DNA from: a virus
IMG/VR virus record: IMGVR_UViG_3300005279_000195
Direction: 5' to 3' (one strand)
Length of the DNA stretch: 64,000 bases
Below the pieces are notes generated by a model, which made no database searches, had not been told where the DNA came from, and saw nothing but the letters and a program-made list of their open reading frames with translations. Position 1 is the stretch's first letter, and the number at the start of each line of letters is the position of its first letter. This document shows positions 21,800-37,222 of the stretch, in pieces. Made by a program: the position numbers and the translations under genes.

Positions 21800-23194
21800 A
21801 TGGAGTATCGACCGCATACATATCAGGCAAAAGCCACCGAGTTCATCAAGCGCATACCCACCTGTGCCCTGTTGCTCGACTGCGGTCTCGGTAAGACCGT
21901 GATAACCCTCACCGCGATAGAAGAGCTGGGTCTTCACAACGTGCTGGTTGTGGCGCCGAAACTGGTCTGCGGCACATGGGAGCGCGAGGTTAACAAGTGG
22001 GACCATCTGGAAGGCCTGACCGTCGCGACAGCGGAGGGCACGGCCGCCAAGCGCACCGCGAAGATATTAGAGCCTGCCGACATCCACATCATATCCCGCG
22101 ACAACATCGCGTGGCTGAAGAAGTCGGGACTCGTAGACCTGAACTCGTACGACATGATAGTGATGGACGAGTCATCGTCATTCAAGAACTGGTCTGCCGC
22201 AAGGACCAAGGCGCTGATGGACTTGCCCTCACCGCGGAAAGTCATCCTCACGGGAACGCCGATGCCGAAGAACATCCAGGACCTGTTCGCGCAGTACAAG
22301 ATACTCGACGGCGGGCTCCGGCTGGAGAGCACCATCACAGCGTTCCGCGGCAAGTATATGCGACTGGTTGACCCCGCGAGATACATCTATAAGCCCTTAC
22401 GCGGCGCAGACGTAACCGTGTTCTCCCGTATCCGGGACATCACGATGTCTATGAGAAGCTCAGAGTTGCTCGACCTGCCGCCGATAACCACTGTTCACAA
22501 CGAGGCAGAGCTGAACGAGAGTGAGCGCGCCGTGTATGACACTATGAAGCGCGACTTCTGTTTGGAGTTGGCGGGGCAGGATATCACGGCGGTCAACGCG
22601 GGGGTCTTAACCGGGAAGCTGTCGCAGATAGCCAACGGGTTCGTGTATGACGAGTTCGGGAACGCCCGTGAGCTCCATCACCGGAAAGAGGAAGTTATAG
22701 AGCCCGTGCTGGAAGCGTCCGCGGGTCAGGGCGAGGATGTCATCGTCGGATACACGTTCAAAGAGGACAGGGTCCGCTTGGAGGCGTTGTGTCATAAGTT
22801 AGGCCTTCCTTGCTTCGACTTGAAGTCCCGAGAGGCCATCGACGCGTTCCTCTCGCCCAACACGGGCAACGTCGGAAGAGTCGCGTTGATACACCCGAAG
22901 TCGGCCGGGTTCGGACTTAACCTGCAGGAGAACTGCCACCGTCTCATCTGGTACTCACTGCCCTGGTCGTACGAGGAGTTCGTCCAGACCACCGCAAGAG
23001 TTTACCGACAGGGCCAGCAGCGACACACATACATACACATTATCGAGACGAAGAACTCGATAGACCAGACCATCCGCGCGGCTATCAACAGCAAAGGCCG
23101 CTGCAACGATACATTGAAAGACCAAACGAAATATATGATTGAGGAGGTACAATCTTATGTCCAGCAACCAAGACAGACGCACGGGCAGATTTAA
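21800..23194 (+). CDS. phage-type SNF2-family helicase
   Basis: LLDCGLGKT, MDESSSFKN, LTGTP, HPKSAGFGLNLQ, QTTARVYRQGQ. Confidence 0.92.
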   Translation: MEYRPHTYQAKATEFIKRIPTCALLLDCGLGKTVITLTAIEELGLHNVLVVAPKLVCGTWEREVNKWDHLEGLTVATAEGTAAKRTAKILEPADIHIISRDNIAWLKKSGLVDLNSYDMIVMDESSSFKNWSAARTKALMDLPSPRKVILTGTPMPKNIQDLFAQYKILDGGLRLESTITAFRGKYMRLVDPARYIYKPLRGADVTVFSRIRDITMSMRSSELLDLPPITTVHNEAELNESERAVYDTMKRDFCLELAGQDITAVNAGVLTGKLSQIANGFVYDEFGNARELHHRKEEVIEPVLEASAGQGEDVIVGYTFKEDRVRLEALCHKLGLPCFDLKSREAIDAFLSPNTGNVGRVALIHPKSAGFGLNLQENCHRLIWYSLPWSYEEFVQTTARVYRQGQQRHTYIHIIETKNSIDQTIRAAINSKGRCNDTLKDQTKYMIEEVQSYVQQPRQTHGQI

Positions 23195-23504
23195 GGATAC
23201 AGAGCGCGAGACCGTCAAACTTTTAGACACCGTTATCCGCTACCCGGACGTTGGGTCAATGACCGAAGACGCGCGCCGCATCCGAGTCGGCCTGAACAAC
23301 TATATGGCTCTGGCCGGGGTCAGACCCACTCAGAAAGAAGTGGTGAATCTCGTGGTCGGAAAGGGCTGGCAACCTTGGCCCGAAGACGCACACACCAGCA
23401 TCTCCCGCCACGACTATCGCCGTTCTTACAAGAGGGCATTATACCGACTCGCCGACTACTTGGAGGAAGTCGAGTTCCTGTACGAAGGGATGGTGGTAGC
23501 ATGA
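23157..23504 (+). CDS. possible ArpU/RinA-like transcriptional regulator (115 aa)
   Basis: C-terminal ISRHDYRRSYKRALYRLADY resembles the ArpU/sigma-4-like helix; follows SNF2 as in Firmicutes phages. Confidence 0.45.
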   Translation: MSSNQDRRTGRFKDTERETVKLLDTVIRYPDVGSMTEDARRIRVGLNNYMALAGVRPTQKEVVNLVVGKGWQPWPEDAHTSISRHDYRRSYKRALYRLADYLEEVEFLYEGMVVA

Positions 23505-24247
23505 GCCATAAGACTGCCGTCAACCCTTGGTTCAACCCGAGGAACAGAGAACATATCCGGCTGTGGATATCTACTCTGAATAAGCATACCGCGCTGCCGT
23601 TGGACGCGAGATACAACATCTGGCTTAACAGTGTGGCGATGGACGACAAGGGCCGCCTTATGCCGGGCCTGACCGACGCGCCTGAGTTCCTTGTAAAAGA
23701 CGAAGATTTGACGAAGTGGGTCAAAGACGTTGACCTGTACGCGCCAAGGCCGGAGTTGAAGCGCTACTACTCGAAAGCGGACTTGGCTGAGTACGACTTC
23801 TCTGTATCATACTACTTTCTGCACCGAGCCGAGGTGCACAGCAGGGTACGCCGAATGCGCAGCATCGACCAGATGGACCCAACGGACAGACCTACACGCG
23901 AGAAGAACCCCGGCGAGGGCCACGTGGACTTCATACCCGAGATGACAACGCGCCGTATGGTGACTGATGCCGTCTTCCTGCGAAACCTTCGGTATCTGCA
24001 GCACAAGATAACGGCATACGAGAGCATCATCATCGGCACGGCGATACGGGAGCTCGGCCTCGACGCCGAGGCTGTAATCGACTGGTTCCTGTGCCGCGAG
24101 AGCCGATGGTCTGACAAGATAGCGTCCGAGGCTGACAAAGACAGGGTCACACAGGCATTGGAGGAGTTGGAGTATGCGTACTGCGAGAGCCACGGCGTAG
24201 CGTGGGAGTCATCCATACTCCCGTGGATGCGACTGCCCGCGGAGTAG
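23501..24247 (+). CDS. hypothetical protein (248 aa)
   Basis: ATG overlaps the upstream stop. Confidence 0.75.
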   Translation: MSHKTAVNPWFNPRNREHIRLWISTLNKHTALPLDARYNIWLNSVAMDDKGRLMPGLTDAPEFLVKDEDLTKWVKDVDLYAPRPELKRYYSKADLAEYDFSVSYYFLHRAEVHSRVRRMRSIDQMDPTDRPTREKNPGEGHVDFIPEMTTRRMVTDAVFLRNLRYLQHKITAYESIIIGTAIRELGLDAEAVIDWFLCRESRWSDKIASEADKDRVTQALEELEYAYCESHGVAWESSILPWMRLPAE

Positions 24248-24301
24248 TCCCTACTACAACATATAGTGGTTTCTTATATTTATTTTCGGAGGATAAACAC
24301 A

Positions 24302-24691
24302 ATGACGAGACTTGAAGATTTGACAGAGGGCAACTGGAAGTATCTTATAGGCGAAACGGACACCATCGTGATGTCGCACGTAGACTATGGCGACGGCGAC
24401 CCTATGCACACAATCTACTGGCAGTGCCCCGCGTTCCCCGAGCTCGGCGGCGAGATGCCGGTTGACATAAACTCGGACTGGGGCAAGGAGTTATGCGCGA
24501 CCGAGAGCGCCAACCTCGACGCGAAACTGGGCGCGGTGCTGAAACAGACCGGCTTTGACGGCTGGAAGACTATCCGCGACCAGATAACCGAAGCGGCTGC
24601 GACGAGCAGAGGGTTTTCCGACATGATAGCGTTCCGAGCAACGCACGTCCCGGCGCAGCAGGCCGAGGAGGAACAAACGCGAAGGGCTTGA
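24302..24691 (+). CDS. hypothetical protein (129 aa)
   Basis: GGAGG RBS before the ATG at 24302; its TGA overlaps the TTGACA of the next promoter. Confidence 0.75.
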   Translation: MTRLEDLTEGNWKYLIGETDTIVMSHVDYGDGDPMHTIYWQCPAFPELGGEMPVDINSDWGKELCATESANLDAKLGAVLKQTGFDGWKTIRDQITEAAATSRGFSDMIAFRATHVPAQQAEEEQTRRA

Positions 24692-24721
24692 CATAAGTGA
24701 TAATGTGCGGTACTATAGCCG

Positions 24722-25660: not shown

Positions 25661-26188
25661 TTACACCTCAGGTTGTGCACTTTGCTCACCGACCTCTTGT
25701 TGCCTCGGCCCGCGCCTTTTCTTGCCCGTTAAACCGAGTTTCCTGCCCCAAGACCCCACGGTACTCTCCGCCAAGCCATACTTGCCCGCGAGCTCTTTAG
25801 CCGTCATGCGTGTGTAGTCGCGTTTGAAACCCTCGATATCGCGCAGCGCTGTGTTGTGCGTTGTGGTCTTGCCGTAGGTTAGCTTGTATTTTTCGAGCCA
25901 CTTGGTTACGGTTACGCGTTTCACGCCGTATCTGTCCGCTATCTCCTGCGCCGTGCAGGATACGTACAGCGCCTCCAGCGTCTCTCTGTCGGGGCAAGCG
26001 GACTGCCTGCCCGCGGGTTTGATGCCGTAGAGGCGCATCCATCGTGCCAGTGTGCAGGTGGACACCCCGTATATTTCTGCGACGTCGGTCATCCGCAGAC
26101 GCTCGCCGTCGATTAAGTGTCGCAGCGATTTCTCGTCGGGGACTTCTATCCGCGCTCTGTGCCCGCGCCTATCGGTTTTGTTACTCAC
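25661..26188 (-). CDS. protein with three tandem HTH motifs (175 aa)
   Basis: MTDVAEIYGVSTCTLARWM, TAQEIADRYGVKRVTVTKWL, TAKELAGKYGLAESTVGSWG; GGAGG RBS. Confidence 0.8.
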   Translation of the reverse strand: MSNKTDRRGHRARIEVPDEKSLRHLIDGERLRMTDVAEIYGVSTCTLARWMRLYGIKPAGRQSACPDRETLEALYVSCTAQEIADRYGVKRVTVTKWLEKYKLTYGKTTTHNTALRDIEGFKRDYTRMTAKELAGKYGLAESTVGSWGRKLGLTGKKRRGPRQQEVGEQSAQPEV

Positions 26189-26193
26189 ACATA

Positions 26194-28254
26194 TCACCTC
26201 CCTCTTGCGAAGTCGAACTCGACCCCACTCTTGTCGTCGCGCAGCTTGAGCGCCGCGTCGAACTTCTTGCCCGCCTTGGACACGAACCCGGATATCTTGC
26301 CGGAGTGCCCTGTAGACAGGAGCGCCTCCGCTTCTTTAAGCGGTATCTTCTTGTTGCACATCTCCTTCCATATAACGAACCCGCACTTGTCGCGCCCGGC
26401 AACGCACGAGTATCCCTTCGGGGTCTCGACCACGTCCGCGCCGCACTTGGGGCACTTGCCGATGGGTTTGTTATCCGCGAGAGTTTGCGGCAGTACGTCG
26501 CCGCGGTGCTCGTCGAGGAACGTCTCCAGGAACTGATGTATCTGCATCATAAACATATCCGACGGATACCCGCCCTCGGCAATGTCGGTCAGGGACGCTT
26601 CCCAGTCCGCGGTCATAGCCGGGTCTTTTATCCTGTCCCAGACCATCTCGATGAATGTGCGTCCCTTCTCGGTTGCGACCAGTTTGGACTTCGACCTCTT
26701 GATATACCCAACTTTAACCAGCTGCTCGATGATGGAGGCGCGGGTAGCCGGCGTTCCGAGCCCCTTACCGCGCATAGCCTCGCGGAGCGACTCGTCATCG
26801 AGGTCTTTGCCACAGGTCTCCATCGCGCCGAGGAGGGTGTTCTCCGTGTACGACGGCGGCGGTGTTGTGAACTTCTCCTGCGTTTCCAGCGAGATTACCG
26901 CGAACTCATCACCCTCGGCCATCTCCGGCAGAATGTTCTCGCGGACGGAAGCACTCTTCCCGATGTCGTCGTAGAGTGCTGCGACGACCGCTTTGTAGCC
27001 GAAGTCAATCATCCGCTTGCCCGTGGCGGCAAACTCGTAGCCCGATATGTCGAGCTTGGCCGATGTCGACTCGTAGTGCGAGTCGGGTGCAAGCGCGATG
27101 GGAAGTCTCCAGAGCACCAGCTGCATGATGTGCCGGGCCTTATCCGCCAACGAGCGCAAGACGGGCAAGGTTAGCGCCGTTGTGGGCAGTATGGCGTGGT
27201 GGTCGGAGACCTTTTTATCGTCGATAACCCTGTCGATGGCAGGTTCGAACCCGAGTTTGGTACCGGGGAAAAGCCCTGCCAGGTAGAGAGTGTTGAGAAG
27301 TTCTAACGTGGACTCCCGTTGCGATGAGGTTAAGTACCTGCTGTCGGTACGCGGGTACGTCGCAAGCCCGGCCTCGTAGAGCCCCTGCAACTGTTCCAGT
27401 GTCTCCGCCGCGGTGTAGCCGAACAGCCGGTTGGCATCGCGCTGCAGAGTGGTTAAGTCGTAGAGTTTCTCAGGCTTGTCCGTCACGGTCTTCTTCTCCA
27501 ACGCGGTGCATCGCGCGATGCCGCCCGTGCACGCCGCAGCAACTGTGTCCGCAGTCTCTTTGTCCTCCTCGCGGTGCGTAGCGGTGAACCCGCCCAAGTC
27601 CGCGGCGAGGATGTAGTACGGCACAGGCACGAAGTTCTCTATCTCTTTGTCTCGGGAGACGATGAGGTTGAGGACCGGAGTCTGTACGCGGCCCGCTGTC
27701 AGGAGCGTCCCGCACTTGGCGGTGTAGTACCGTGAGAGGTTGATGCCGATAAGCCAGTCGGCCTGTTGACGAGCGAGCCCCGACTCGTAGAGCGAGTCGT
27801 AGTCGGACGCCGGACGCAGGTTGGACATCGCCTCGGCAAGCGCCGACGGCTCCATCGAGGATACCCAGAGGCGCAGCACGGGCTTGTCACATCGGGCGAG
27901 GTTGTAGACCAGGCGGAATATGAGCTCGCCTTCACGCCCCGCGTCGGTTGCTTCTATTACCGTGTCGATATCCGCCCGCCTCATCAGTGACGAGACGACG
28001 CCGAACTGCTTAGCGCCCGACTCGGTTACCTTGTACTCGAACGGGTCGGGTATGATGGGCAGGTCGCGGACATCCCAGCGCTTGTAGCGCTCATCATACT
28101 CCGCGGCATCCTGCAACTCGACTAAGTGCCCGAAGCACCAGGTCACAATGTAGCCTCCGCCTTCCGTGTATCCGTCGCCGTACGATGTAGCGCCGACAAC
28201 ACCCGCGATAGAGCGGGCTACGGACGGCTTTTCTGCAACTATAAGCTTAGGCAT
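26194..28254 (-). CDS. topB: DNA topoisomerase III (type IA)
   Basis: LIVAEKPSVA, ATDAGREGELIF, GRVQTP, catalytic TYPRTDS, GLGTPATRA.II; C-terminal Zn-ribbon/C-tail. Confidence 0.95.
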   Translation of the reverse strand: MPKLIVAEKPSVARSIAGVVGATSYGDGYTEGGGYIVTWCFGHLVELQDAAEYDERYKRWDVRDLPIIPDPFEYKVTESGAKQFGVVSSLMRRADIDTVIEATDAGREGELIFRLVYNLARCDKPVLRLWVSSMEPSALAEAMSNLRPASDYDSLYESGLARQQADWLIGINLSRYYTAKCGTLLTAGRVQTPVLNLIVSRDKEIENFVPVPYYILAADLGGFTATHREEDKETADTVAAACTGGIARCTALEKKTVTDKPEKLYDLTTLQRDANRLFGYTAAETLEQLQGLYEAGLATYPRTDSRYLTSSQRESTLELLNTLYLAGLFPGTKLGFEPAIDRVIDDKKVSDHHAILPTTALTLPVLRSLADKARHIMQLVLWRLPIALAPDSHYESTSAKLDISGYEFAATGKRMIDFGYKAVVAALYDDIGKSASVRENILPEMAEGDEFAVISLETQEKFTTPPPSYTENTLLGAMETCGKDLDDESLREAMRGKGLGTPATRASIIEQLVKVGYIKRSKSKLVATEKGRTFIEMVWDRIKDPAMTADWEASLTDIAEGGYPSDMFMMQIHQFLETFLDEHRGDVLPQTLADNKPIGKCPKCGADVVETPKGYSCVAGRDKCGFVIWKEMCNKKIPLKEAEALLSTGHSGKISGFVSKAGKKFDAALKLRDDKSGVEFDFARGR

Positions 28255-28871
28255 TAAGACTCACCTCCCTTGACTGAAGGCTCGGTATAGACGACGCCTT
28301 TGTACTTGCCGGTCGCAGTGTCCACCGCGATAACCCAGCCTGCGGGCAGGTCATCCGCGGGAGTATGCCAGTCGACGACATTCCCGCGCGTCATAAGCGC
28401 GAAGTTGGCGGTCACGGAGCGTCTCAGGGCACCCTTGTTGACCGCGCCGACGATGGCATCCGCGGTGATGATGCCGAGGTACTTGCCATCCTTGTCCGTG
28501 ATGGGGATGAACGGGCGCGAGAGTTTGATGCGCCGCGCGACGTCCTGCATCTTCTCGGACTCCTTGGCCGCCTGTACGCGACACATTATGTCGGCGACCT
28601 GTTTGCGGAGTCTCTCCTGCATCTCCGCGTGCTTCTTGAGGAACGCGAGCATCGCAGGCGACGGGACGATGAAGCCGGCCTCGTCGTGCACGATGAAGTT
28701 GCGCGTCAAGCGGCAGAGCTGCAGGCGCTTGGCCTCGCGCTCGGGCAGCGCGGTCTCGTACTCGCGGACGTTAGTCTCCTGAAGCGCAAGCGCCGCTTCG
28801 AGCATCTTGTAGGTATCGACGAACTCCGACGTGAGCTTAGCGTCGGAAAGAGTTGTTTTGGATTTAGTCAT
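28254..28871 (-). CDS. HEPN (Swt1-like) + CBS-domain protein
   Basis: EF+D.Y..LE..L and R-N-x-x-x-H (RNFIVH), followed by V.DIM and IPITDKDGKYLGIITAD CBS motifs. Confidence 0.7.
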   Translation of the reverse strand: MTKSKTTLSDAKLTSEFVDTYKMLEAALALQETNVREYETALPEREAKRLQLCRLTRNFIVHDEAGFIVPSPAMLAFLKKHAEMQERLRKQVADIMCRVQAAKESEKMQDVARRIKLSRPFIPITDKDGKYLGIITADAIVGAVNKGALRRSVTANFALMTRGNVVDWHTPADDLPAGWVIAVDTATGKYKGVVYTEPSVKGGES

Positions 28872-29622: not shown

Positions 29623-30585
29623 TTAGTCAACTTCCACCGCAGTACCGTCGGCGTAGTCGATAACCCAGCCGTGCTGTGTGTTCGGGACGAATACACAGAA
29701 CGACAGGCCCGAACCGTTATCTTCCACCGAGAACCCTTCCATAATGACGCCGTTGGCAACAAGGTTGTCGCCGTCATATACGGGGGTTACGCGATACATA
29801 AAGTGGTTGTGATAAGTCTCGATATAATCCGCCACCTCATTCTCATAGACAAGCATTCCGTCCACGTTGAGTTGGCGTGTTCCCGTGATGAGGTTTAGGG
29901 GATTGGCGTTCTCACCGGTAAGTTGATACCCGATAAGATGGCAACGGTTGTAGAGCCACCCGCCATCGACGTTGTCCGCCTTGTACGAGTTCCAACCCGA
30001 CGGTGTCACAGACGAAAGACTCTCGTCGCGCTCTTCGGTCGGCATCATGTCGTAGTAGAGGCACGCCGTTGCCGTACCGCAGCGCCCGAGCGAGTCAAGT
30101 TCGGAGAAAGTTTGAAAACCCTCGATAGAAAGCTCGTCGTCCGTGAAATACGGCTCGTTGTTATTGAGGATGACGATGACGTCTGCTGTATCAAGGTCGA
30201 CGGTAAGCGCTTCTGCGATACCCTGCTCAAGCGGTGTTGTCGAAAGTTCGGTCTGTGCGACAGAAGTTGCCGCAGAAGTCTCCGCGCCGCCTGTAGGCTC
30301 GCCGATAACTATAGCGGTGACCGCAGGCTCGTCGGCTTCGTCTGTGTCCGTATCATCGGCAACGGTTGCCGCGGTCTGCGCGGTTGTCGCGTCGGTTACA
30401 AGCGAGATGGACTCGTCTTCGCCAAACCGGTCTTTGAGCCGGTTGTAGCCCCAGAATACGAGGAGGATGAGAACAACGATGAAAAACTCAACAAGAGTCT
30501 CCTTAGCCCACTTCCTCGCTTTCTGCTTGGCGCGCGTTTTAGGGTCGACCTGTCTATCAAATCCAAAAACTCTGTTCCAGTTCAT
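29623..30585 (-). CDS. membrane-anchored DNA/RNA non-specific endonuclease (EndA/Sda-like, beta-beta-alpha-Me)
   Basis: N-terminal TM helix; LDSLGRCG.A.A, TPSGW, YNRCHLIGYQLTGENAN..NLITGTRQLN..GM..YE, YRVTPVY.G.NLVA.GV.ME. Confidence 0.9.
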   Translation of the reverse strand: MNWNRVFGFDRQVDPKTRAKQKARKWAKETLVEFFIVVLILLVFWGYNRLKDRFGEDESISLVTDATTAQTAATVADDTDTDEADEPAVTAIVIGEPTGGAETSAATSVAQTELSTTPLEQGIAEALTVDLDTADVIVILNNNEPYFTDDELSIEGFQTFSELDSLGRCGTATACLYYDMMPTEERDESLSSVTPSGWNSYKADNVDGGWLYNRCHLIGYQLTGENANPLNLITGTRQLNVDGMLVYENEVADYIETYHNHFMYRVTPVYDGDNLVANGVIMEGFSVEDNGSGLSFCVFVPNTQHGWVIDYADGTAVEVD

Positions 30586-31057
30586 ACAAGTTGTCCTTTC
30601 TGCGTAATGTATTATCTTTTATAACAATAGTATAACATCAATAGGAAATACTTGCAAGTAGTGATAATAACTTCGATTGAAATTAAGAAAGAACAGTAGA
30701 GGGTGTTGGGCGATATGCACGATGGAGAGGACCTTTGCTTGTGCGATAAGCACAACCGATATGTGCACCCTGTATAACCGCTGTACCCACCGCTTGTGCA
30801 AACTGCCGGACGCCTACGCTAATTACCCGCAAACTCCTTTCCCCGTTTCCAAACTCCACCCTTCTATCACCCTTCTGCTGCCCGCCCTGCTCCGGTCGTC
30901 CGCCCCTCCCGCACCACGCTTAGTCACACCGCCATATAATGTACTTGCCGTTTTGTGCAAGTCGTCAAACTAAAACTGCTTGCTTCTCGCGGCAATGTAT
31001 TTATACTTATTATTAACACCGTTAAGTGGCAACGCCGCACGCGAAAGGAGACTGATG

Positions 31058-33028
31058 ATGGGTAATGTGGTGAAGTTCCTGCATCTCGACATTGAGACGC
31101 AGTCTGAGATAGACCTCTCCGAGACAGGAGTGTATAGATATGTTGAGGGCGACGAGTTCGGAATACAGTTGCTCTCTTATGCGTACAACGACGAGCCCGT
31201 GAGGACTCTCGACTTGGCTCACGGCGACGCGTTCCCCGAGAGCCTTGCCGCCGACATCTTAAATCCCGATGTGAAGAAAGTTGCACACAACGCCTCGTTC
31301 GAGCGTGTGTGTTTCTCGCGACTCCTTCTGGGCCCGCAGAAATATATCGACCCGAAGGGCTGGGCGTGCACGCTTGTACTGGCGTCCTACTTCAACCTCC
31401 CTGAGTCTTTGGCTAAGTTGGGCGAGGCTTTGGGTCTGCCTGAAGATAAGGCTAAACTCAAAGAGGGCCCGAGGCTCGTCAAGATGTTCTCCGGCGCGGG
31501 GCACCCGGATATGTCCGTTATCCCGCAGGATGCGGCTTGGGAGAAGTACCTTGAGTACAACGCTCAGGATGTTATCGCCGAGCGCGAAATCTGGAAACGC
31601 TTCACATCGCCCGAGATGTCCTGCGCGATGTATCCGCGTCTGATGACAGAGTATCAGCAGTCCGAGAGGATTAACGACCGCGGTGTTCTCGCGGACCTGA
31701 AGTTCACCGAGCGTATGATTGAACTGACCGCGCGGTATAAGGAGCAGGCTACGGCGGAGTTAGGAAGGCTCTGCGACGCGTACGCGGAGAAGTACGGACA
31801 GGCGAAGGTCGAGAACACCAACTCCACATCGCAGCTCAAGAAGCTGCTGGGTCTGACATCACTGCGGGCCAACGATGTCGACGCCATCATCGAAGACCCG
31901 ACAACGCCTGAGGATACGAAGCAGATTTTAAGACTCCGTGCGTCTCTGGCTCAGTCTGCGGTAACTAAGTACGATAAGATTGTGGCTTGCGCCTGCGCGG
32001 ACGGCCGTATCAGGGGCCTGTTTAAGTTTTATGGCGCGGGTACGGGCAGGTTCGCAGGTCGCCTTGTGCAGTTGCAGAACCTGAAGAAGAACCACTTCGA
32101 CGATGTCGCGGCTGCCCGCGACCTGTATATGAACGGCAGCCCGGAGTTTTCGACTGACTTACTTTCTGATTTGGGAGAACTTATCAGAACCGCTCTTATC
32201 CCGAAAGACGGCTGCACTTTTTCCGACGCGGACTACTCGGCTATCGAAGCCCGCGTTCTGGCATATATCGCAGGCGAGCAGTGGCGAGTTGACGCGTTTT
32301 GCGACGGTCGTGACATCTACTGCGAGTCGGCGTCCCGTATGTTCGGCAAACCCGTAGTCAAGGGCGGCGAGAACGGAGAACTCCGCGGTACGGGCAAAGT
32401 CGCGGAACTTGCCTGCGGGTACGGCGGCGGTGTCGGCGCGTTCAAGCGTATGGGCGGTGAGAGACTGGGGCTCACGGAAGATGAGACCGCGCAGATTATC
32501 TCCGACTGGCGCTCTCAGTCTCCGCATATCGTAGACCTCTGGTACAACTTGGAGAACTGGGTTAAGAGAGCCATCAGGAAACCCGGCACGGAGGTTAGAT
32601 GCTACGCGGTCGGTATGGGTGTTACGGACATCTCCGTGGTCGTAAGGCCTATGGCGGGTCAGACGGGGTATCGCTTGGAACTGACCCTCCCTATCACGCA
32701 CAGAAGACTTATATATCCCAATATCCGCATCGAGTCGGGCGGGATTATGTATACAAGCAACCGCGGCGTAGACAAGTCGCTCTACGGCGGGAAACTCACC
32801 GAGAACCTCATTCAGGCAGTGGCACGCGACATTTTGACAGGCGCGCTTATGTTGCTCGAAGACGCGGGGTATCCGGTGGTTATGCACATCCACGACGAGG
32901 TGCTCGTAGAGTACCCGACAGAGTGCGTTAAAGAGATAGCCGAGATTATGGCACACGCGGCAGACCCGTATGTGGGGCTGCCCCTGAAAGCCGAAGGCTA
33001 TCAGTGCGACTTCTTCATCAAGCAGTAA
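31058..33028 (+). CDS. polA: phage-type family A DNA polymerase with 3'-5' exonuclease domain
   Basis: LDIET, AHNASFER, YN.QDV; ADYSAIEARVLA, K.AELACGYGGG, KLTENLIQAVARD, MHIHDE. Confidence 0.95.
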   Translation: MGNVVKFLHLDIETQSEIDLSETGVYRYVEGDEFGIQLLSYAYNDEPVRTLDLAHGDAFPESLAADILNPDVKKVAHNASFERVCFSRLLLGPQKYIDPKGWACTLVLASYFNLPESLAKLGEALGLPEDKAKLKEGPRLVKMFSGAGHPDMSVIPQDAAWEKYLEYNAQDVIAEREIWKRFTSPEMSCAMYPRLMTEYQQSERINDRGVLADLKFTERMIELTARYKEQATAELGRLCDAYAEKYGQAKVENTNSTSQLKKLLGLTSLRANDVDAIIEDPTTPEDTKQILRLRASLAQSAVTKYDKIVACACADGRIRGLFKFYGAGTGRFAGRLVQLQNLKKNHFDDVAAARDLYMNGSPEFSTDLLSDLGELIRTALIPKDGCTFSDADYSAIEARVLAYIAGEQWRVDAFCDGRDIYCESASRMFGKPVVKGGENGELRGTGKVAELACGYGGGVGAFKRMGGERLGLTEDETAQIISDWRSQSPHIVDLWYNLENWVKRAIRKPGTEVRCYAVGMGVTDISVVVRPMAGQTGYRLELTLPITHRRLIYPNIRIESGGIMYTSNRGVDKSLYGGKLTENLIQAVARDILTGALMLLEDAGYPVVMHIHDEVLVEYPTECVKEIAEIMAHAADPYVGLPLKAEGYQCDFFIKQ

Positions 33029-33136: not shown

Positions 33137-34453
33137 ATGAGTACATTGTTTTCACAAAAGACCCGAGCGAAGAACCCCGTTCTGTCGCAGGCATCGGGTA
33201 GGTCGGTAGGTAAGGTCGTGTTCAACCTGGTTACGGTAACAGACTTTGTCGATGAGAATTACGACTGTTCTTTCAACTCCTGGAGCAACGAGGAGATTAT
33301 AGATGGCAAGCCCGTCACCGACGCGGACATCAACCGTATCAGAGGCGAGATTGAGGAGACTTATAGATATGAAGGCGTCACCTGCACCTCCGAGGTTGTG
33401 GCCTCCTCCATATCCGCCGTGTGCCGTATGCACAGTTTCGACCCGCTGTGCGACAGACTCGACAACGCCCACGACAGGTGGATAGCAGCCGGACGCCCGC
33501 AGAACTTGGAGCGGCTGTTCGTCGACTACTTAGGGTGTGACGATAACGACTACACAAGGACTGTGACGAAGATTATCTTCTACGGCTTAATTGGCAGAGC
33601 GTATCAGCCCGGTTTGAAGTACGACTATCTGCCCATCATCTCGGGTGCGCAGGGACAGGGCAAGTCCACCCTGTTGAAGAAACTGGGCGGCGAGTTCTTC
33701 GACGACTCGCTGGATGTGTCGATGTTCGGCACAGAGCAGGCAACGGAGAGGCTGTATAAGGGAATATGGCTCGCCGAACTGCAGGAGATGGCAAAGATGG
33801 CTAAGGCGGACGAGAACACACTGAAGATGTTCTTGTCCAGCGCTTCCGACAGTTACAGACCGAAGTATATGCGGAAGGTCGAAACGCTGCCGAGACGCAC
33901 CGTGTTTATCGGCACGACCAACCAGAAGTGGGGCTTGTTCTCCGACACGGTCAATAGAAGGTTCATCCTTCTTAATTGTAACCCGAAGCAGCAGACAAAG
34001 TTCTCCTGGGATATGACTGTTGAGGAACGGGACTTACTGCTTGGCGAGGCTGTTGAGATGTATAAGCAGGGTATGGACTTATACGCGCTTCTTATGTCCA
34101 TCAAGGAGACTCAGACATCATTGACCGACGAGTATGTATCCCACGACGAGAACTTCACCGACTTGGAAACATTCTTAAGGATGCCCCGCCCGGAGAACTG
34201 GAACGAGTTGGACGCAGTGTCCCGCGGCGCGTACTACAAGAAGTATTTGCGGAACCCGGACGACTCGGGCGACCTTGTCCCCGATATATCCGTCCGCGAG
34301 ATATGGTGCGAGGCGTTGGGCCACGTCGACCACTCGATGACGAACAGGGACTCGTATGGCGTTGTAAGAGCGCTGACGCTGTTGGGGTACAACAGCCGTA
34401 CGAAAGAGACTATCCCGCAGTACGGCAGAACCTTCGTGTACCACTTAGAGTGA
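33137..34453 (+). CDS. vapE: VapE-family (virulence-associated E) ATPase/helicase, lacking an N-terminal primase domain
   Basis: HSFDPL.D.L, PG.KYDYLPII.GAQGQGKST, WLAELQEM, D.YRP.Y, FIGTTN, NRRF. Confidence 0.88.
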   Translation: MSTLFSQKTRAKNPVLSQASGRSVGKVVFNLVTVTDFVDENYDCSFNSWSNEEIIDGKPVTDADINRIRGEIEETYRYEGVTCTSEVVASSISAVCRMHSFDPLCDRLDNAHDRWIAAGRPQNLERLFVDYLGCDDNDYTRTVTKIIFYGLIGRAYQPGLKYDYLPIISGAQGQGKSTLLKKLGGEFFDDSLDVSMFGTEQATERLYKGIWLAELQEMAKMAKADENTLKMFLSSASDSYRPKYMRKVETLPRRTVFIGTTNQKWGLFSDTVNRRFILLNCNPKQQTKFSWDMTVEERDLLLGEAVEMYKQGMDLYALLMSIKETQTSLTDEYVSHDENFTDLETFLRMPRPENWNELDAVSRGAYYKKYLRNPDDSGDLVPDISVREIWCEALGHVDHSMTNRDSYGVVRALTLLGYNSRTKETIPQYGRTFVYHLE

Positions 34454-34471
34454 TAAGGCGGCGTAAAAGAT

Positions 34472-34768
34472 ATGCGGGAGTCGGCAGTTGAGCGATATTT
34501 GGTAAAGCAAGTCAAAGCGGCGGGCGGGTTCACGGCGAAATGGACATCGCCCGCTTCTTCGGGGCTCCCCGACAGAGTTGTTGTTATCGCGGGGTCTACC
34601 GTGTTCGTGGAAGTTAAAGCGCCGGGAAAAGAACCCCGGCCCTTGCAACTCGCGAGACACCGTGAGATTGAAAGAGCCGGGGGCAAAGTTTTGGTGATTG
34701 ACTCCAAAGAAGGAGTCGATGCAATGGTTAGAGCCCTAAGTTGTCAGAGTTCTCCGACAGGAACATAG
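34472..34768 (+). CDS. VRR-NUC domain nuclease
   Basis: MRES.VE.YL, G+PDR+V, FVEVKAPG..PRPLQ. Confidence 0.92.
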   Translation: MRESAVERYLVKQVKAAGGFTAKWTSPASSGLPDRVVVIAGSTVFVEVKAPGKEPRPLQLARHREIERAGGKVLVIDSKEGVDAMVRALSCQSSPTGT

Positions 34769-35081
34769 CGAACGCGGCGAAGAACTCTTTACCTGAAGCG
34801 GACAAGTGCCTGTAGGTCGTGAGTATTTCGGCCTCCTGCGAGTCTAAGATTTTGTACCGCTCGGTGTCCCGCGCCATAGGTGCGTCCTTGCCGGCAAGCC
34901 ATTCAGCCGAGACATTAAGGCACTTCGCCAACTTGTCCATAGTCTCCGCCTTGGGGACGAACCTGCCGTTCTTGTACCGGCTCATCGCCGGCTCGGTAAT
35001 GTTAATCTCTCGTGCTACTTCTGCTGCTGTCTTGCCGGAAGCCTGAAGTGCCTCCATAAGTCTGTCGGGAAAAGTTGCCAT
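34728..35081 (-). CDS. XRE-family HTH transcriptional regulator (117 aa)
   Basis: FPDRL...TAAEVAREINITEPAMSRYKNG..VPK.ETMDKLA..LNVS.EWL; AAGGAGG RBS. Confidence 0.9.
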   Translation of the reverse strand: MATFPDRLMEALQASGKTAAEVAREINITEPAMSRYKNGRFVPKAETMDKLAKCLNVSAEWLAGKDAPMARDTERYKILDSQEAEILTTYRHLSASGKEFFAAFAMFLSENSDNLGL

Positions 35082-35179
35082 AAGTTTGTACCTCCTTATC
35101 TTTGTTTTTGTTAGTTCAAATATAACAAAAGTATAACAGCCATGCAACAAATAAATTGCACAAAACCGCAAGGGCGGAA

Positions 35180-35311
35180 TTGACAACGGAAGGCAGCGCG
35201 GTGATAATATAATTAGCCTTTTGTTTAATTTCAATCCTCGCAAAAGATTTGAAAACAAAGAAAGAAGTGAGTGATTTTAGTATTGCACTTCTGATAATAA
35301 GTTGTTATAAT
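35180..35311 (+). promoter_or_regulatory. two tandem sigmaA promoters divergent from the XRE gene
   Basis: TTGACA(35180)-17-GATAAT and TTGCAC(35283)-17-TATAAT. Confidence 0.65.
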
Positions 35312-35388: not shown

Positions 35389-36231
35389 ATGACTACTGTA
35401 AGTGAGCACAACTCAGCCGAGCCTATCGTTGTACGGGCGCACGCACTTGTCTCCCCGTCCTCACTGACCCGCACCATCAAGTGTCCGAGGTCTCTGAAGA
35501 TTAACGAAGACTGGCGTCTGGAGCACGGTGACGAGTCGACCCCCGCCGCAGCGGAAGGTACGAAGGCTCACGCGGTAGCCGAAAACTGTGTTAACGAGGC
35601 CTTCGGTCTCCCACTGCAGGAAGACTCCGTCGCGGAAGCCGCGGATGCTGACTCGGTTATGGAGTATTGCGCTACGGCGTACAGGGATTTCATCTTGAAA
35701 GTATATCAGGGCGAAGGCTGCACAAGCCTTGCGACTGAAACCCGCGTAGACTTGACGGATTATGTCGAGGAGTGTTGGGGCACTTGCGACTGCTTTATGA
35801 CCGCAGCGGACAAAATTATCATCGTGGATTACAAATACGGACACGCACTGGTTAGAGCCGAAGGCAACAACCAACTGAGAGCGTACGCCCTCGGTGCGTA
35901 CCTCTCTGTTCCCGCAATGGATAGAGCCCGCATCCGCTCGGTTGAGTATTTCATCTTCCAACCCCGCGCAACAACGGACTACACGGAGTACGGGCCCCGA
36001 AGACTTGCGCATATCGGCGCAATCTCCCACGACACCATCTCCGTTACGGAACTCAAAGCGTGGGCTGCCGACACCAACGTCGCCGTGAAACACGCGCTGC
36101 GTGACGAAGGCGATTTCTGCTCGGGCGAGCACTGTGCGTTCTGCGCAGGTAAGGGAACTTGTCCGGCGACACAAGAAAGGTCAACCGAGGATATTCAGGA
36201 GAGTCTGGATAGTCTCTTTGACAATAAATAA
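35389..36231 (+). CDS. DUF2800-like Cas4/PD-(D/E)XK Fe-S exonuclease
   Basis: HA.+SPSS..R..KCP.S, A.EGT.AH, WGTCD, IVDYKYG, QLRAYALG, CSGEHCAFC.....CP. Confidence 0.88.
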   Translation: MTTVSEHNSAEPIVVRAHALVSPSSLTRTIKCPRSLKINEDWRLEHGDESTPAAAEGTKAHAVAENCVNEAFGLPLQEDSVAEAADADSVMEYCATAYRDFILKVYQGEGCTSLATETRVDLTDYVEECWGTCDCFMTAADKIIIVDYKYGHALVRAEGNNQLRAYALGAYLSVPAMDRARIRSVEYFIFQPRATTDYTEYGPRRLAHIGAISHDTISVTELKAWAADTNVAVKHALRDEGDFCSGEHCAFCAGKGTCPATQERSTEDIQESLDSLFDNK

Positions 36232-36277
36232 GCAAACCAAACCAACACTAAATTACACTCACGGAGGAAAAAACACT

Positions 36278-37222
36278 ATGGCTTGGACAACAGAAGATTA
36301 CAATAACGCACTGAAGAACACTTATGAGTGGGCAAAGTCCCAACTCTCCGACGCCAACCGTGCCGCAATCAAGGCGAGCACCGACAAACTCAATCAGGGC
36401 ACAATGCTCTTGTCTACTAAGTACGGTTCCCACAACCTGATGGGCGGCAACAGACCGTTTGAGATTTGGGTGTTGCAGTCCACAATTACCAATCCACCCA
36501 GAATTGAAACTGCCGACGGCAAGACTTTCTACCCGACTGAAATCCGCGGTACGATTAAGCAGTCCGGTTATTTTACCGCAGCGTACTATTTCTGGGCTAT
36601 GATTACGGGTTGGGAGCACAAGACCGGCCGCGTAGTCAATCCTGACAACCTGACAGAGGTGTTCGGCAAGAGTGCTCCTATCACAGTTAACTACAAGGAT
36701 GACAAGACCTATGTCAACTTCCAGATGAGCGTGTGCGTAAGAACTCAAACGCCCAACTCCGATTGGCAGCTCACTCAGCTTGGTTCGGAAATTGAAGGCA
36801 AGGTTTTGAACGCCGCTTCCGCCGACGCTATCTTGAACCCCGTTCCGAGGACAGATGGCAAGAGCGACTCCGCTTCTGCCCTCATAGTGCCTTCTGCGTA
36901 CTTCGGTAAAAACGATATTATCAAGACGCGTGTCGCTTCTTTGACTGTTGTGCCTTATGTATCTCGCGAAGTCGAGATTGACACATCAGACCTTGACGCT
37001 ATGTTCAATCAGGATGTAACGCCCGTAGCACCCGTAGCACCCGTAGCACCCGCTGCACCTGCACCCCAGCAGCAGTACGCACAGCCTGCTCAGCCTCAGT
37101 ACGCACCTGCCCCTCAGCAGGCGCCGGCAGCACCCGCAGTGGCAAACAACGCCGCAGGCGAGCCCGGCGCGGGCGATGAGTTCGGAGCAGATGACGACTT
37201 CGGTTGCGGCTTCTCGATTTGA
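36278..37222 (+). CDS. SSB/annealase-like protein with Pro/Ala/Gln linker and acidic-aromatic C-terminal tail
   Basis: Follows DUF2800 where an SSB usually sits; tail PVAPVAP..QQQYAQP..DEFGADDDFGCGFSI. Function inferred only. Confidence 0.5.
   Translation: MAWTTEDYNNALKNTYEWAKSQLSDANRAAIKASTDKLNQGTMLLSTKYGSHNLMGGNRPFEIWVLQSTITNPPRIETADGKTFYPTEIRGTIKQSGYFTAAYYFWAMITGWEHKTGRVVNPDNLTEVFGKSAPITVNYKDDKTYVNFQMSVCVRTQTPNSDWQLTQLGSEIEGKVLNAASADAILNPVPRTDGKSDSASALIVPSAYFGKNDIIKTRVASLTVVPYVSREVEIDTSDLDAMFNQDVTPVAPVAPVAPAAPAPQQQYAQPAQPQYAPAPQQAPAAPAVANNAAGEPGAGDEFGADDDFGCGFSI

What the first reader, a model, noticed from the sequence alone, without database searches (positions are those of the whole stretch)
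21800..37222. Phage-style replisome (PolA, VapE, VRR-NUC, SNF2, DUF2800, SSB-like) inside a conjugative element with no virion genes
Seen in the sequence: all six genes are intact but split into three separately promoted blocks, interleaved with topB and a membrane nuclease, on the same contig as a T4SS and relaxase. Established knowledge: DUF2800-SSB-PolA...VapE-VRR-NUC-SNF2 is a common replication module of Firmicutes siphoviruses, whereas conjugative elements normally rely on host polymerases. Inference: a conjugative replicon that domesticated a phage replisome and may replicate or synthesise the second strand semi-autonomously.
Basis: partly seen in the sequence, partly recalled or inferred. 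Interest (0 to 1): 0.7.

Follow-up and report, generated by a model that had tools for sequence, protein, structure and literature searches.

The report
Conjugative element carrying phage-type replisome
A large DNA-transfer (conjugative) element in the chromosome of a rumen Clostridia bacterium carries its own phage-derived DNA polymerase, single-strand-binding protein, nucleases and helicases but no recognisable virus-particle genes, and relatives keep the same arrangement, so these elements may copy their own DNA instead of relying on the host polymerase.

Summary
Observation confirmed. All six genes are intact:
- SNF2, 21800-23194
- PolA, 31058-33028
- VapE, 33137-34453
- VRR-NUC, 34472-34768
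- DUF2800, 35389-36231
- a 314-aa protein, 36278-37222, with no Pfam or PHROG hit. It folds like T7 gp2.5/DUF2815 SSBs and has an SSB-type linker and acidic tail.

They lie in three plus-strand blocks around a minus-strand topB, CBS-protein and membrane-nuclease block.

The window is part of an element of at least 91 kb on a 139.6-kb rumen contig. The element abuts chromosomal aspS of a Saccharofermentans-like host. It has a CD1110/CD1115-type T4SS and a relaxase. About 100 unknown ORFs gave no capsid, terminase, portal or tail match. No integrase was seen and the left end was not reached.

Relatives with 45-58% PolA identity keep nuclease(-)/PolA(+)...DUF2800-SSB. In 155 phage and prophage loci the order is DUF2800-PolA...VRR-NUC-SNF2, and none has topB, the nuclease or T4SS genes nearby. 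The PolA clade is monophyletic, absent from IMG/VR, and nested among phage PolAs.

The module is therefore a long-resident, rearranged phage-derived unit, not a fresh prophage. Its role in replication is inferred. VapE, VRR-NUC and SNF2 are not kept in all relatives. The scan had not noted this module before, and no paper describing it was found.

The parts
10827..12245 (-). DUF3991-Toprim protein, a candidate conjugative-type primase
   Evidence: Pfam DUF3991 1.5e-5 and Toprim_2 3e-4. No PHROG, NCBIfam or PDB hit.
15685..18642 (-). UvrD/PcrA-like SF1 helicase with an N-terminal PD-(D/E)XK region
   Evidence: PF00580 1.8e-43, UvrD_C 3e-18, weak PDDEXK_1. phrog_1967 1.4e-81.
21800..23194 (+). 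SNF2-family helicase, first gene of block 1
   Evidence: PF00176 2.7e-21. phrog_62 6e-112. Promoter-like site at 21711-21738. 43-53% identical homologue at the same place in L003 and L203.
23157..24691 (+). Three unknown genes after SNF2: 115 aa, 248 aa and 129 aa
   Evidence: Gene calls. No Pfam or PHROG hit. The 248-aa protein is conserved in L003 and L203 at 33-35%.
25661..26188 (-). Multi-HTH DNA-binding protein at the downstream end of the minus-strand topB block
   Evidence: HTH_23 1e-11 and HTH_28 3e-10.
26194..28254 (-). Topoisomerase III (topB)
   Evidence: Topoisom_bac 2e-105, Toprim, Toprim_Crpt. 48-53% identical homologues at the same place in L003, L109, L203 and L205.
28254..28871 (-). 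CBS-domain protein
   Evidence: CBS 3e-5. 40-41% identical homologues in L003 and L203.
28864..29585 (-). Two small unknown genes, 121 aa and 119 aa
   Evidence: Gene calls. No hits.
29623..30585 (-). Membrane-anchored non-specific DNA/RNA endonuclease, divergent from PolA
   Evidence: Endonuclea_NS_2 1.8e-25. One transmembrane helix followed by a T/A/D/E-rich linker. Found upstream of PolA in all 8 clade loci that have upstream flank.
30944..30960 (-). 17-nt box TTGCACAAAACGGCAAG (TTGC-N8-GCAA) just upstream of the PolA promoter
   Evidence: Only two near-exact copies in 64 kb. With up to 3 mismatches, 0.37 matches are expected by chance. Sequence read.
31058..33028 (+). Family A DNA polymerase with 3'-5' exonuclease domain and no 5' nuclease domain
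   Evidence: PF00476. phrog_17 1e-114. Motifs A and C intact. Exonuclease and polymerase motif residues invariant across the clade alignment.
33137..34453 (+). VapE-type helicase without a primase domain
   Evidence: PF05272 1.5e-56. phrog_256 6e-80, matching only positions 417-792 of 798.
34472..34768 (+). VRR-NUC endonuclease
   Evidence: phrog_93 1.8e-30. Pfam VRR_NUC 0.0076.
34728..35081 (-). XRE-type HTH regulator, divergent from the DUF2800 block
   Evidence: HTH_3 recorded for the called gene. Translation. An HTH gene sits in the same place in the P0007 and L109 relatives.
35156..35208 (+). Second copy of the 17-nt box (35156-35172), then the promoter-like site TTGACA-17-GATAAT
35389..36231 (+). 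DUF2800 PD-(D/E)XK (Cas4/RecB-like) exonuclease
   Evidence: PF10926 1.4e-49 and PDDEXK_1 9e-11. phrog_69 exonuclease 1.2e-53. 61-66% identical within the clade against 25-36% (one 44%) to canonical loci.
36278..37222 (+). gp2.5/DUF2815-fold single-strand DNA-binding protein with a P/A/Q-rich linker and an acidic tail
   Evidence: Only 7 representatives among 1.84 billion proteins. Strong terminator-like hairpin at 37244-37283.
37311..37841 (+). Conserved acidic 176-aa protein of unknown function (p176)
   Evidence: Homologues in the clade follow the SSB gene directly or after one to two genes, in L024, L109 and L205. Model pLDDT 79, but no fold match above Z 3.7.
52330..54876 (-). Large T4SS-associated protein with a weak CHAP (cell-wall hydrolase) match
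   Evidence: CHAP 8.5e-4, below the Pfam cutoff. Sits next to VirB4, as in the sister-clade element.
54960..57566 (-). VirB4 ATPase, CD1110 family
   Evidence: NCBIfam NF045971 equivalog, 773.6 bits against a cutoff of 325. Pfam hits.
57569..59167 (-). PrgI (VirB3-like) protein and a polytopic VirB6-like membrane protein
   Evidence: PF12666 PrgI on the called gene. Translations.
59577..61406 (-). VirD4-type coupling protein, CD1115 family
   Evidence: NF045973 equivalog, 406 bits against a cutoff of 250. PF02534 1.6e-55.
63485..64000 (-). C-terminal 171 residues of a 279-aa MobA/VirD2-type relaxase; the gene runs to about 64324, outside the window
   Evidence: PF03432 on the full gene in L013-L015. 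Histidine-rich motif HTNTDTLHCH visible.

Best explanation
The finding lies inside a chromosomally integrated conjugative element of at least 91 kb. Its T4SS is of the Firmicutes CD1110/CD1115 type and it has a MobA/VirD2-type relaxase. The host is a Saccharofermentans-like rumen Clostridia bacterium.

The element belongs to a family that long ago took up the phage replication module DUF2800 exonuclease, gp2.5-like SSB, family A polymerase, VapE helicase, VRR-NUC and SNF2. The family reshuffled the module and joined it to conjugation-type DNA-handling genes: topB, a membrane nuclease, and in this element also a UvrD-like helicase and a Toprim/DUF3991 primase-like protein.

Most likely mechanism (inferred). 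On induction the XRE-type repressor inside the module is relieved. The relaxase nicks oriT. The element's own polymerase extends the 3' end by strand displacement, or fills in the transferred strand. The gp2.5-like SSB coats the displaced strand. The helicases unwind, the Toprim protein primes, the DUF2800 and VRR-NUC nucleases trim ends and branches, and topB unlinks the products. In this way the excised or newly transferred element is copied largely without the host replicative polymerase.

Shown: gene identities, intact catalytic motifs, absence of recognisable virion genes, conserved rearranged synteny, co-occurrence with the T4SS lineage, and branching among phage PolAs.

Inferred: expression, replication role, origin, and which strand is synthesised.
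For: 1. Gene identities and intact motifs. SSB fold and tail.

2. Context.
- The window's first 2 kb are identical to the 139,578-bp contig at offset 18,458.
- To the right, the element ends between its last gene and aspS. aspS has a T-box leader and is followed by potABCD-like and other housekeeping genes. Its product is 87-90% identical to AspS of two Saccharofermentans-like MAGs.
- VirB4 and T4CP pass the NCBIfam equivalog cutoffs. Relaxase and PrgI are present.

3. No virion genes. Thirty unknown ORFs scanned singly in PHROGs (ten of them also in Pfam) gave no hit. Seventy more, scanned as a set in PHROGs and Pfam, gave only five unnamed PHROGs and three unrelated Pfam families. The one capsid-sized candidate (394 aa) is HipA-like.

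4. Conserved, clade-specific architecture.
- L003, L203 and L204 (PolA 56-58%) and L109, L205, L206, L023 and L024 (45-47%) keep nuclease(-)/PolA(+) and/or PolA followed by DUF2800-SSB. topB is present wherever at least 7 kb of upstream flank is held.
- In 75 genome loci and 80 IMG/VR loci (PolA 36-41%) DUF2800 precedes PolA. None has topB, the nuclease, this SSB type or T4SS genes within 10 kb. A deposited Heliusvirales phage shows the canonical order ending in a terminase.

5. Linkage to conjugation in relatives.
- A T4CP-like gene lies 3.6 kb beyond the SSB gene on the 123-kb scaffold.
- The sister-clade PolA P0018 and a 50%-identical VirB4 lie on the same 234,910-bp contig, with the same T4SS gene order.
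- Among 301 genomes of the host's order, only G001 and G002 carry a full-length clade PolA (48-50%). Only those two carry the close VirB4 (67-72%). All other VirB4 matches are 50% or less.

6. Phylogeny. The clade is monophyletic (SH-aLRT 100). Its sister is P0010+P0018 (99). It sits among phage and prophage PolAs when rooted with proteobacterial PolAs. The best IMG/VR PolA is 41% identical.

7. A shared 17-nt box upstream of the PolA and DUF2800 promoters suggests joint control.
Against: - No expression, copy-number or circular-form data could be obtained, so function rests on gene content.
- No replication initiator or origin was identified.
- VapE, VRR-NUC and SNF2 are absent beside PolA in the 47% subclade. 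The complete replisome is therefore not the conserved unit.
- VapE lacks a primase domain.
- No integrase or att site was found and the left end was not reached. The element's limits, and even its present mobility, are unproven.
- T4SS linkage in the relatives rests on one T4CP-like gene, one shared contig, and co-occurrence in two closely related MAGs that may count as a single event.
- 'Nested among phage PolAs' depends on outgroup and midpoint rooting of a quick tree.
- Very divergent virion genes could escape PHROGs and Pfam.
Confidence: 0.6

Rival explanations
1. The module is kept by the conjugative elements but does not replicate them. It would serve recombination or repair, establishment in the recipient (for example only filling in or repairing the incoming strand), or protection against host nucleases and defence systems.
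For: - The conserved core is PolA, an exonuclease, an SSB, topB and a nuclease, without a constant replicative helicase or primase.
- No initiator or origin was found.
- SSB and topB genes are common accessories of conjugative elements (own knowledge: the ICEHin1056, pKLC102 and GGI families; Inc18 plasmids).
- The neighbourhood holds defence-related and counter-defence-like genes: an EcoRI-type methylase, GmrSD-HNH and SUKH, and a HipA-like protein.
Against: - The polymerase belongs to the phage replicative lineage, with a proofreading exonuclease.
- In this element and the 57% subclade it sits with VapE, VRR-NUC and SNF2, exactly as in phage replication modules.
- Second-strand synthesis in the recipient already falls within the main explanation.
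Confidence: 0.22
2. The element, or its family, is really a virus-like entity: a phage-plasmid or 'conjugative phage' whose particle genes are too divergent to recognise.
For: - Long unidirectional arrays of small unknown genes flank the window.
- Relatives carry 30-32 tRNA genes inside the module, a feature common in large phages.
- The replication genes are phage-type.
- Roughly 100 ORFs have no annotation.
Against: - None of about 100 unknown ORFs hit a PHROG or Pfam structural or packaging family.
- The unidirectional small-gene arrays hold no terminase-, portal- or tape-measure-sized ORFs. The largest is 394 aa and is HipA-like.
- The clade is absent from 2.9 million IMG/VR contigs.
- A complete conjugation set is present.
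- tRNA arrays are also known on ICEs and plasmids (PMC4758250, PMC5966550, PMC12803027).
Confidence: 0.07
3. The module is a separate prophage, or a decaying prophage remnant, that landed in a conjugative element and has no function for it.
For: - The genes are of phage type.
- The 10-38 kb stretch is richer in G+C (54-59%) than the T4SS (52%), the small-gene arrays (46-49%) and the host flank (50%).
- Three IS605-type TnpB genes show that the element does accept insertions.
Against: - There is no integrase, no flanking direct repeats and no virion genes.
- All ORFs are intact, with catalytic motifs kept at 45-58% divergence.
- The rearranged order, with topB and the nuclease interleaved, is shared by at least 8 loci from different samples and is never seen in 155 phage or prophage loci.
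- The G+C-rich stretch also includes non-phage genes (Toprim/DUF3991, topB).
Confidence: 0.05

Closest known systems
Replication module of gut and streptococcal siphoviruses: Ca. Heliusvirales phages such as NatCom_27610 (PV036438.1), Streptococcus phages Javan123 and phi-Ssu, Corynebacterium phage Adelaide
   Same: Same protein families: DUF2800 exonuclease, gp2.5/DUF2815-fold SSB, family A polymerase with proofreading, VapE-type helicase, VRR-NUC and SNF2. PolA is 39-41% identical.
   Different: - Gene order is reshuffled. The canonical order is DUF2800-SSB-PolA...VapE-VRR-NUC-SNF2. Here it is SNF2...PolA-VapE-VRR-NUC...DUF2800-SSB.
- topB and a membrane nuclease are interleaved.
- The SSB has no sequence similarity to DUF2815.
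- VapE lacks the primase half.
- There are no recognisable terminase, capsid or tail genes.
- The module sits in a T4SS element.
Clostridial conjugative transposons and ICEs with CD1110-family VirB4 and CD1115-family VirD4. The NCBIfam models are named after Clostridioides difficile 630 genes. My recollection that these genes lie in a CTn element was not checked.
   Same: VirB4 and T4CP pass the equivalog cutoffs. PrgI, a VirB6-like protein, a large hydrolase-like protein and a MobA/VirD2-type relaxase follow the usual order.
   Different: This element carries a family A polymerase module of about 16 kb and is very large (at least 91 kb). No integrase has been seen yet. No description of a polymerase in such elements was found.
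Autonomous rolling-circle replication of ICEBs1 and Tn916 (own knowledge: Lee, Babic and Grossman 2010; Wright and Grossman 2016)
   Same: The concept is the same: an excised ICE replicates from oriT using its relaxase, a UvrD/PcrA-type helicase and an SSB.
   Different: Those ICEs use the host polymerase and the host PcrA, with a small helper protein. This element encodes its own polymerase, SSB, UvrD-like helicase, primase-like protein and topoisomerase. Replication here has not been shown.
ssb-topB accessory genes of the ICEHin1056/pKLC102/GGI families, and the RumAB (Pol V) genes of SXT/R391 ICEs (own knowledge)
   Same: These are conjugative elements that carry their own SSB, topoisomerase III or a polymerase.
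   Different: Those SSBs are of the bacterial OB type, and the polymerase is a Y-family lesion-bypass enzyme. Neither is a phage-type proofreading family A polymerase with its exonuclease and SSB partners.
Phage-plasmids (PMC7969092) and the 'conjugative prophage' Phi1207.3 (PMC4260502)
   Same: Mobile elements that mix phage and plasmid or conjugation traits. Phi1207.3 has a DUF2815 gene and is reported to transfer by a conjugation-like route.
   Different: Those elements keep full virion gene sets, and Phi1207.3 lacks a T4SS. Here it is the reverse: a full T4SS and no recognisable virion genes.

Membership tests
Phage DUF2800 / gp2.5-like SSB / PolA / VapE / VRR-NUC / SNF2 replication module | Family A polymerase with intact polymerase and 3'-5' exonuclease motifs | tested here: met
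   PF00476 and phrog_17 1e-114. DYSAIE and HDE align to Taq motifs A and C. Exonuclease residues are invariant in the clade.
Phage DUF2800 / gp2.5-like SSB / PolA / VapE / VRR-NUC / SNF2 replication module | DUF2800 PD-(D/E)XK exonuclease | tested here: met
   PF10926 1.4e-49 and phrog_69 1.2e-53.
Phage DUF2800 / gp2.5-like SSB / PolA / VapE / VRR-NUC / SNF2 replication module | DUF2815 (gp2.5-like) SSB recognisable by sequence | tested here: not met
   No Pfam or PHROG hit at E 0.01 or 0.001. No BLASTP similarity to a phage gp2.5-like protein.
Phage DUF2800 / gp2.5-like SSB / PolA / VapE / VRR-NUC / SNF2 replication module | gp2.5/DUF2815 fold with an acidic C-terminal tail | tested here: met
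   The top nine PDB matches are gp2.5/DUF2815/Enc34 SSBs, probability 0.91-0.99, with moderate TM 0.43-0.49. BFVD matches include DUF2815 and 'DNA helix destabilizing' proteins. Linker and acidic tip seen.
Phage DUF2800 / gp2.5-like SSB / PolA / VapE / VRR-NUC / SNF2 replication module | VapE helicase, VRR-NUC and SNF2 present | tested here: met
   They are not conserved beside PolA in the 47% subclade.
Phage DUF2800 / gp2.5-like SSB / PolA / VapE / VRR-NUC / SNF2 replication module | Canonical gene order (DUF2800 and SSB upstream of PolA; VRR-NUC next to SNF2) | tested here: not met
   Here the order is SNF2...PolA-VapE-VRR-NUC...DUF2800-SSB. Among 155 comparison loci, every one in which DUF2800 is detected has it upstream of PolA.
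Prophage or phage-plasmid | Capsid, portal, terminase and tail genes on the element | tested here: not met
   About 100 unknown ORFs over some 92 kb gave no structural or packaging PHROG or Pfam family. The 394-aa candidate is HipA-like. Very divergent genes cannot be excluded.
Conjugative element with CD1110-type (Firmicutes) T4SS | VirB4 ATPase of the CD1110 family | tested here: met
   NF045971 equivalog, 773.6 bits against a cutoff of 325.
Conjugative element with CD1110-type (Firmicutes) T4SS | VirD4-type coupling protein of the CD1115 family | tested here: met
   NF045973, 406 bits against a cutoff of 250.
Conjugative element with CD1110-type (Firmicutes) T4SS | Relaxase | tested here: met
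   PF03432 on the 279-aa gene that starts just outside the window. NCBIfam relaxase models score below their cutoffs.
Conjugative element with CD1110-type (Firmicutes) T4SS | Cell-wall hydrolase in the T4SS cluster | tested here: inconclusive
   CHAP 8.5e-4, below the Pfam cutoff, on the 848-aa protein next to VirB4.
Integrative and conjugative element (ICE) | Chromosomal integration | tested here: met
   The right end abuts aspS (with T-box leader) and housekeeping genes on the same 139.6-kb contig. AspS is 87-90% identical to that of Saccharofermentans-like MAGs. This rests on a single assembly.
Integrative and conjugative element (ICE) | Integrase or recombinase, and att repeats at both ends | tested here: inconclusive
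   None appears among the gene products seen. No repeat of the right junction was found in the held left part. The left end was not reached, because the contig starts inside or just beyond the element.
ICEBs1-type self-replicating ICE | Replication of the excised circle from oriT | not testable with these tools
   No sequencing runs could be listed. Loci that span the junction are not accepted for read mapping.

The most novel reading that the evidence does not exclude
A family of rumen and gut Clostridia conjugative elements (ICEs, and possibly a 235-kb plasmid form) has become replicatively self-sufficient. It would have done so by taking over a phage T7-like core (proofreading family A polymerase, gp2.5-like SSB, exonuclease) and coupling it to relaxase-initiated DNA transfer. 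Some members even add about 30 tRNA genes. This would be a capsid-less lineage between phages and conjugative elements, whose DNA synthesis during transfer and after excision does not depend on the host polymerase.
Probability: 0.3. Interest if true: 0.75.

Novelty: new variant of a known kind. Interest (0 to 1): 0.6.

Why it matters
Models of conjugation and ICE maintenance assume that the host replisome makes the replacement and complementary strands. A conserved family of conjugative elements that brings its own proofreading polymerase, SSB, nucleases, helicases and topoisomerase would change three things.
- It would show a new route to host-independence, and perhaps to a broad host range.
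- It would give a concrete case of stable module transfer from phages to conjugative elements.
- It would offer a tractable system for asking which polymerase acts in conjugative DNA synthesis.

It also matters for annotation. Such regions are easily miscalled as prophages by tools that key on phage replication genes. The gp2.5-fold SSB found here belongs to a tiny family that sequence searches do not detect.

Tried and rejected
- Near-identity DNA searches of plasmid and phage collections found no match.
- No whole genome is held for the window.
- Records behind metagenome and assembly loci could not be searched or extended, so VirB4 could not be placed on the 123-kb, 126-kb and 271-kb relatives' contigs.
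- The VirB4 homologue P0123 (72%) has a longest contig of exactly 126,179 bp, the length of the contig holding L203. This is suggestive only.
- att search: blastn-short of the right junction against the held left part found nothing.
- Empty-site comparison with two related MAGs failed because synteny around aspS is not conserved.
- The assembly breaks near aspS come from a local tandem repeat of about 55 bp, not from an att site.
- Sequencing runs: none was listed for the module or for PolA, and no RNA holder was listed. Depth, circular junctions and expression could therefore not be examined.
- Complex prediction of PolA with the SSB-like protein gave no answer, score 0.00. This is not evidence either way.
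- p176: a model with pLDDT 79, but the best structural Z is 3.7. Faint PUR/PC4-like rows appear at Z 2.9, and an Atlas PurA row has TM 0.48. No assignment was made.
- The 904-aa and Toprim/DUF3991 proteins have no PDB sequence relatives.
- The 17-nt box is not conserved in relatives' promoters.
- The repeated 'CATAAGTT...TACCTCCT' motif in the repeat scan is the reverse complement of a Shine-Dalgarno-spacer-ATG context, not an origin repeat.
- Five of the six literature searches targeted a polymerase-bearing conjugative element and found no description of one.
- The 'Hodor' megaplasmid preprint concerns Rep_3/MOBH plasmids carrying whole prophages, a different situation.

Full report

Pfam and PHROG scans identify the genes as follows.
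- SNF2 helicase, 21800-23194.
- Topoisomerase III, 26194-28254, minus strand.
- A CBS protein, 28254-28871, minus strand.
- An Endonuclease_NS_2 nuclease, 29623-30585, minus strand.
- A family A polymerase, 31058-33028.
- A VapE helicase, 33137-34453.
- A VRR-NUC nuclease, 34472-34768. It is weak in Pfam but scores 1.8e-30 against phrog_93.
- A DUF2800 PD-(D/E)XK exonuclease, 35389-36231.

The polymerase keeps motifs A and C and its exonuclease residues. The nuclease has one N-terminal transmembrane helix, so 'membrane nuclease' is correct.

The sixth gene, 'SSB-like', is the 314-aa ORF at 36278-37222. It has no Pfam or PHROG hit and only seven representatives among 1.84 billion proteins. An alignment of these shows a globular domain of about 230 aa, a P/A/Q-rich linker and an acidic C-terminal tip. 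In its AlphaFold model the nine best PDB matches are all gp2.5/DUF2815-type phage SSBs, and BFVD gives similar matches. I accept it as a gp2.5-fold SSB at the fold level. By sequence it is not a DUF2815 member.

Promoter-like sites precede each plus-strand block. A 17-nt box, TTGC-N8-GCAA, occurs only upstream of the PolA and DUF2800 promoters.

**Context**

The window matches a 139,578-bp rumen metagenome contig at offset 18,458. I walked along this contig with exact-protein look-ups.

To the right of the window lie the rest of the relaxase gene, small unknown genes, an IS605-type TnpB and a second EcoRI-type methylase. The element then ends at about window coordinate 75,400. Beyond it come aspS with a T-box leader, a potABCD-like transporter, a histidine kinase and other ordinary genes. 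AspS is 87-90% identical to that of an uncultured Saccharofermentans MAG and of 'Clostridiales Firm_14'. The host is therefore a close relative of these, and the element is integrated in its chromosome.

To the left, unknown small genes and two more TnpB genes continue for at least 16 kb, to within 761 bp of the contig start. The left end and any integrase remain unseen.

VirB4 and the coupling protein pass the NCBIfam equivalog cutoffs for the CD1110 and CD1115 families. PrgI, a VirB6-like protein and a PF03432 relaxase complete a Firmicutes-type conjugation set.

**No recognisable virion genes**

Thirty unknown ORFs were scanned one by one in PHROGs, ten of them also in Pfam. Seventy more were scanned as a set in both libraries. 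They gave no structural or packaging family. The only hits were five unnamed PHROGs plus DUF6076, DUF4352 and a weak TctB match. The unidirectional small-gene arrays that look superficially like morphogenesis clusters have no terminase-, portal- or tape-measure-sized genes. Their largest protein (394 aa) is HipA-like.

No direct repeats or integrase flank 21.8-37.9 kb.

**Relatives**

The closest PolA homologues (45-58% identity) come from rumen and other gut metagenomes, on contigs of 56-271 kb. The next tier, at 42% or less, sits on phage-sized contigs.

Look-ups and scans gave ten clade loci. Marker tblastn searches show two subclades.
- The 57% subclade (L003, L203, L204) repeats the window's order: SNF2, a p248 homologue, topB(-), CBS(-), nuclease(-), PolA, VapE, VRR-NUC, DUF2800, SSB.
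- The 47% subclade (L109, L205, L023, L024, L206) keeps topB(-), nuclease(-), PolA, an HTH gene(-), DUF2800, SSB and p176, but has no VapE, VRR-NUC or SNF2 beside PolA.

By contrast, 75 loci from species genomes and 80 from IMG/VR (PolA 36-41%) all show DUF2800 upstream of PolA, usually followed by VapE, VRR-NUC and SNF2. None has topB, the nuclease, this SSB type, VirB4, a T4CP or a relaxase within 10 kb. A deposited Heliusvirales phage shows this canonical module running into a large terminase gene. No clade member is present among 2.9 million IMG/VR contigs.

**Linkage with conjugation genes beyond this contig**

- On the 123-kb scaffold a T4CP-like gene lies 3.6 kb beyond the SSB gene.
- The sister-clade PolA P0018 (39%) is flanked by DUF2800, VapE and an Endonuclease_NS_2 gene. 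It shares a 234,910-bp contig with a VirB4 50% identical to ours, and that VirB4 sits in the same T4SS gene order. The two lie at opposite contig ends, which would be adjacent if the molecule is circular.
- In 301 species genomes of the host's order, only two have a full-length clade PolA, and only the same two have the close VirB4 lineage. Under independence this has a probability of about 2e-5. The two genomes are close kin, however, so it may reflect a single inheritance.

**Phylogeny**

In a 70-sequence tree the clade is monophyletic (SH-aLRT 100). Its sister is P0010+P0018 (99). It lies within the spread of phage and prophage PolAs when rooted by proteobacterial outgroups. This fits one old capture followed by diversification inside conjugative elements. 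The rooting is not rigorous.

**Interpretation**

The module is neither a fresh prophage nor debris. It is an old, rearranged, selectively maintained part of a family of conjugative elements. The constant core is polymerase, exonuclease, SSB, topB and membrane nuclease. The helicase, VRR-NUC and SNF2 genes are variable.

I think the most likely role is element-directed DNA synthesis: strand-displacement or replacement synthesis from the relaxase nick, copying of the excised circle, or both. An internal XRE-type regulator would control it. This parallels ICEBs1 and Tn916 replication, but with the element's own enzymes. That role is inferred from gene content.

A repair, recombination or establishment role is the main rival. 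A cryptic virus-like lifestyle is a minor rival. It is kept alive by the many unknown ORFs and by the 30-32-tRNA arrays found in the 57% subclade, although tRNA arrays also occur on ICEs and plasmids (PMC4758250, PMC5966550).

**Novelty**

Five full-text searches aimed at a conjugative element with a family A polymerase or this module found no description of one. The scan's own notes hold nothing on it. They do record conjugative elements with other kinds of private polymerases.

I rate it a new variant of a known kind: a conjugative element with an element-encoded, phage-derived replication core. Interest is moderate to high, limited by the lack of functional data and by the unresolved element ends.

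Noticed in passing
L003:15154-19246, L203:15042-20026, L204:5549-5625: In the 57% subclade, an array of 30-32 tRNA genes covering 19 amino acids in L003 and all 20 in L203 sits inside the module, between VRR-NUC and DUF2800. The window has the XRE gene and promoters at that place, and has no tRNA genes at all.
   Followed up: partly
window 30944-30960 and 35156-35172: A 17-nt box (TTGC-N8-GCAA) occurs only upstream of the PolA and DUF2800 promoters. It may be an operator for the XRE regulator at 34728-35081. It is not conserved in relatives.
   Followed up: partly
contig of P0018 and P0144 (ENA ERZ27256871, 234,910 bp; DNA not retrievable): The sister-clade PolA module and a CD1110-type T4SS lie at opposite ends of the same contig. 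They would be adjacent if the molecule is a circular 235-kb plasmid.
   Followed up: partly
window 1-148 (gene continues leftwards), L020:11035-12300, L014:2189-3277: Three IS605-family TnpB (OrfB/Cas12f-like) genes are scattered in the element. One of them explains where the 78-kb JGI assembly breaks.
   Followed up: no
L020:5074-6258 (about 2.1-3.3 kb left of the window start): A 394-aa HipA-like kinase-fold protein (Atlas TM 0.9 by target) lies within a long array of small unknown genes. It may be a toxin or defence cargo.
   Followed up: partly
window 12974-18642: The UvrD-like helicase with an N-terminal PD-(D/E)XK region is immediately followed, with a 4-bp overlap, by an unannotatable 904-aa protein. 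The pair may be AddAB-like. There is no Pfam, PHROG, NCBIfam or PDB hit for the 904-aa protein.
   Followed up: partly
window 36278-37222: The gp2.5-fold SSB belongs to a very small family, 7 representatives in 1.84 billion proteins. One representative is a 1026-aa protein with eight matched stretches (P0244), possibly a tandem-repeat form.
   Followed up: no
L112:11290-11400 and 11450-11700: A tandem repeat of about 55 bp, where two independent assemblies break, lies upstream of a T-box leader that precedes aspS.
   Followed up: partly
window 50514-51653 and L017:7423-8514: The element has two EcoRI-type adenine methylase genes. The one in the window is paired with a GmrSD-HNH nuclease and a SUKH protein.
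   Followed up: no
window 24688-25449: Five promoter-like sites on the same strand fall within about 760 bp of non-coding DNA between the SNF2 block and the topB block. This agrees with another first-stage note on the region.
   Followed up: no
window 9934-37841: The whole DNA-metabolism region is 54-59% G+C. The host flank is 50%, the T4SS 52% and the small-gene arrays 46-49%.
   Followed up: no
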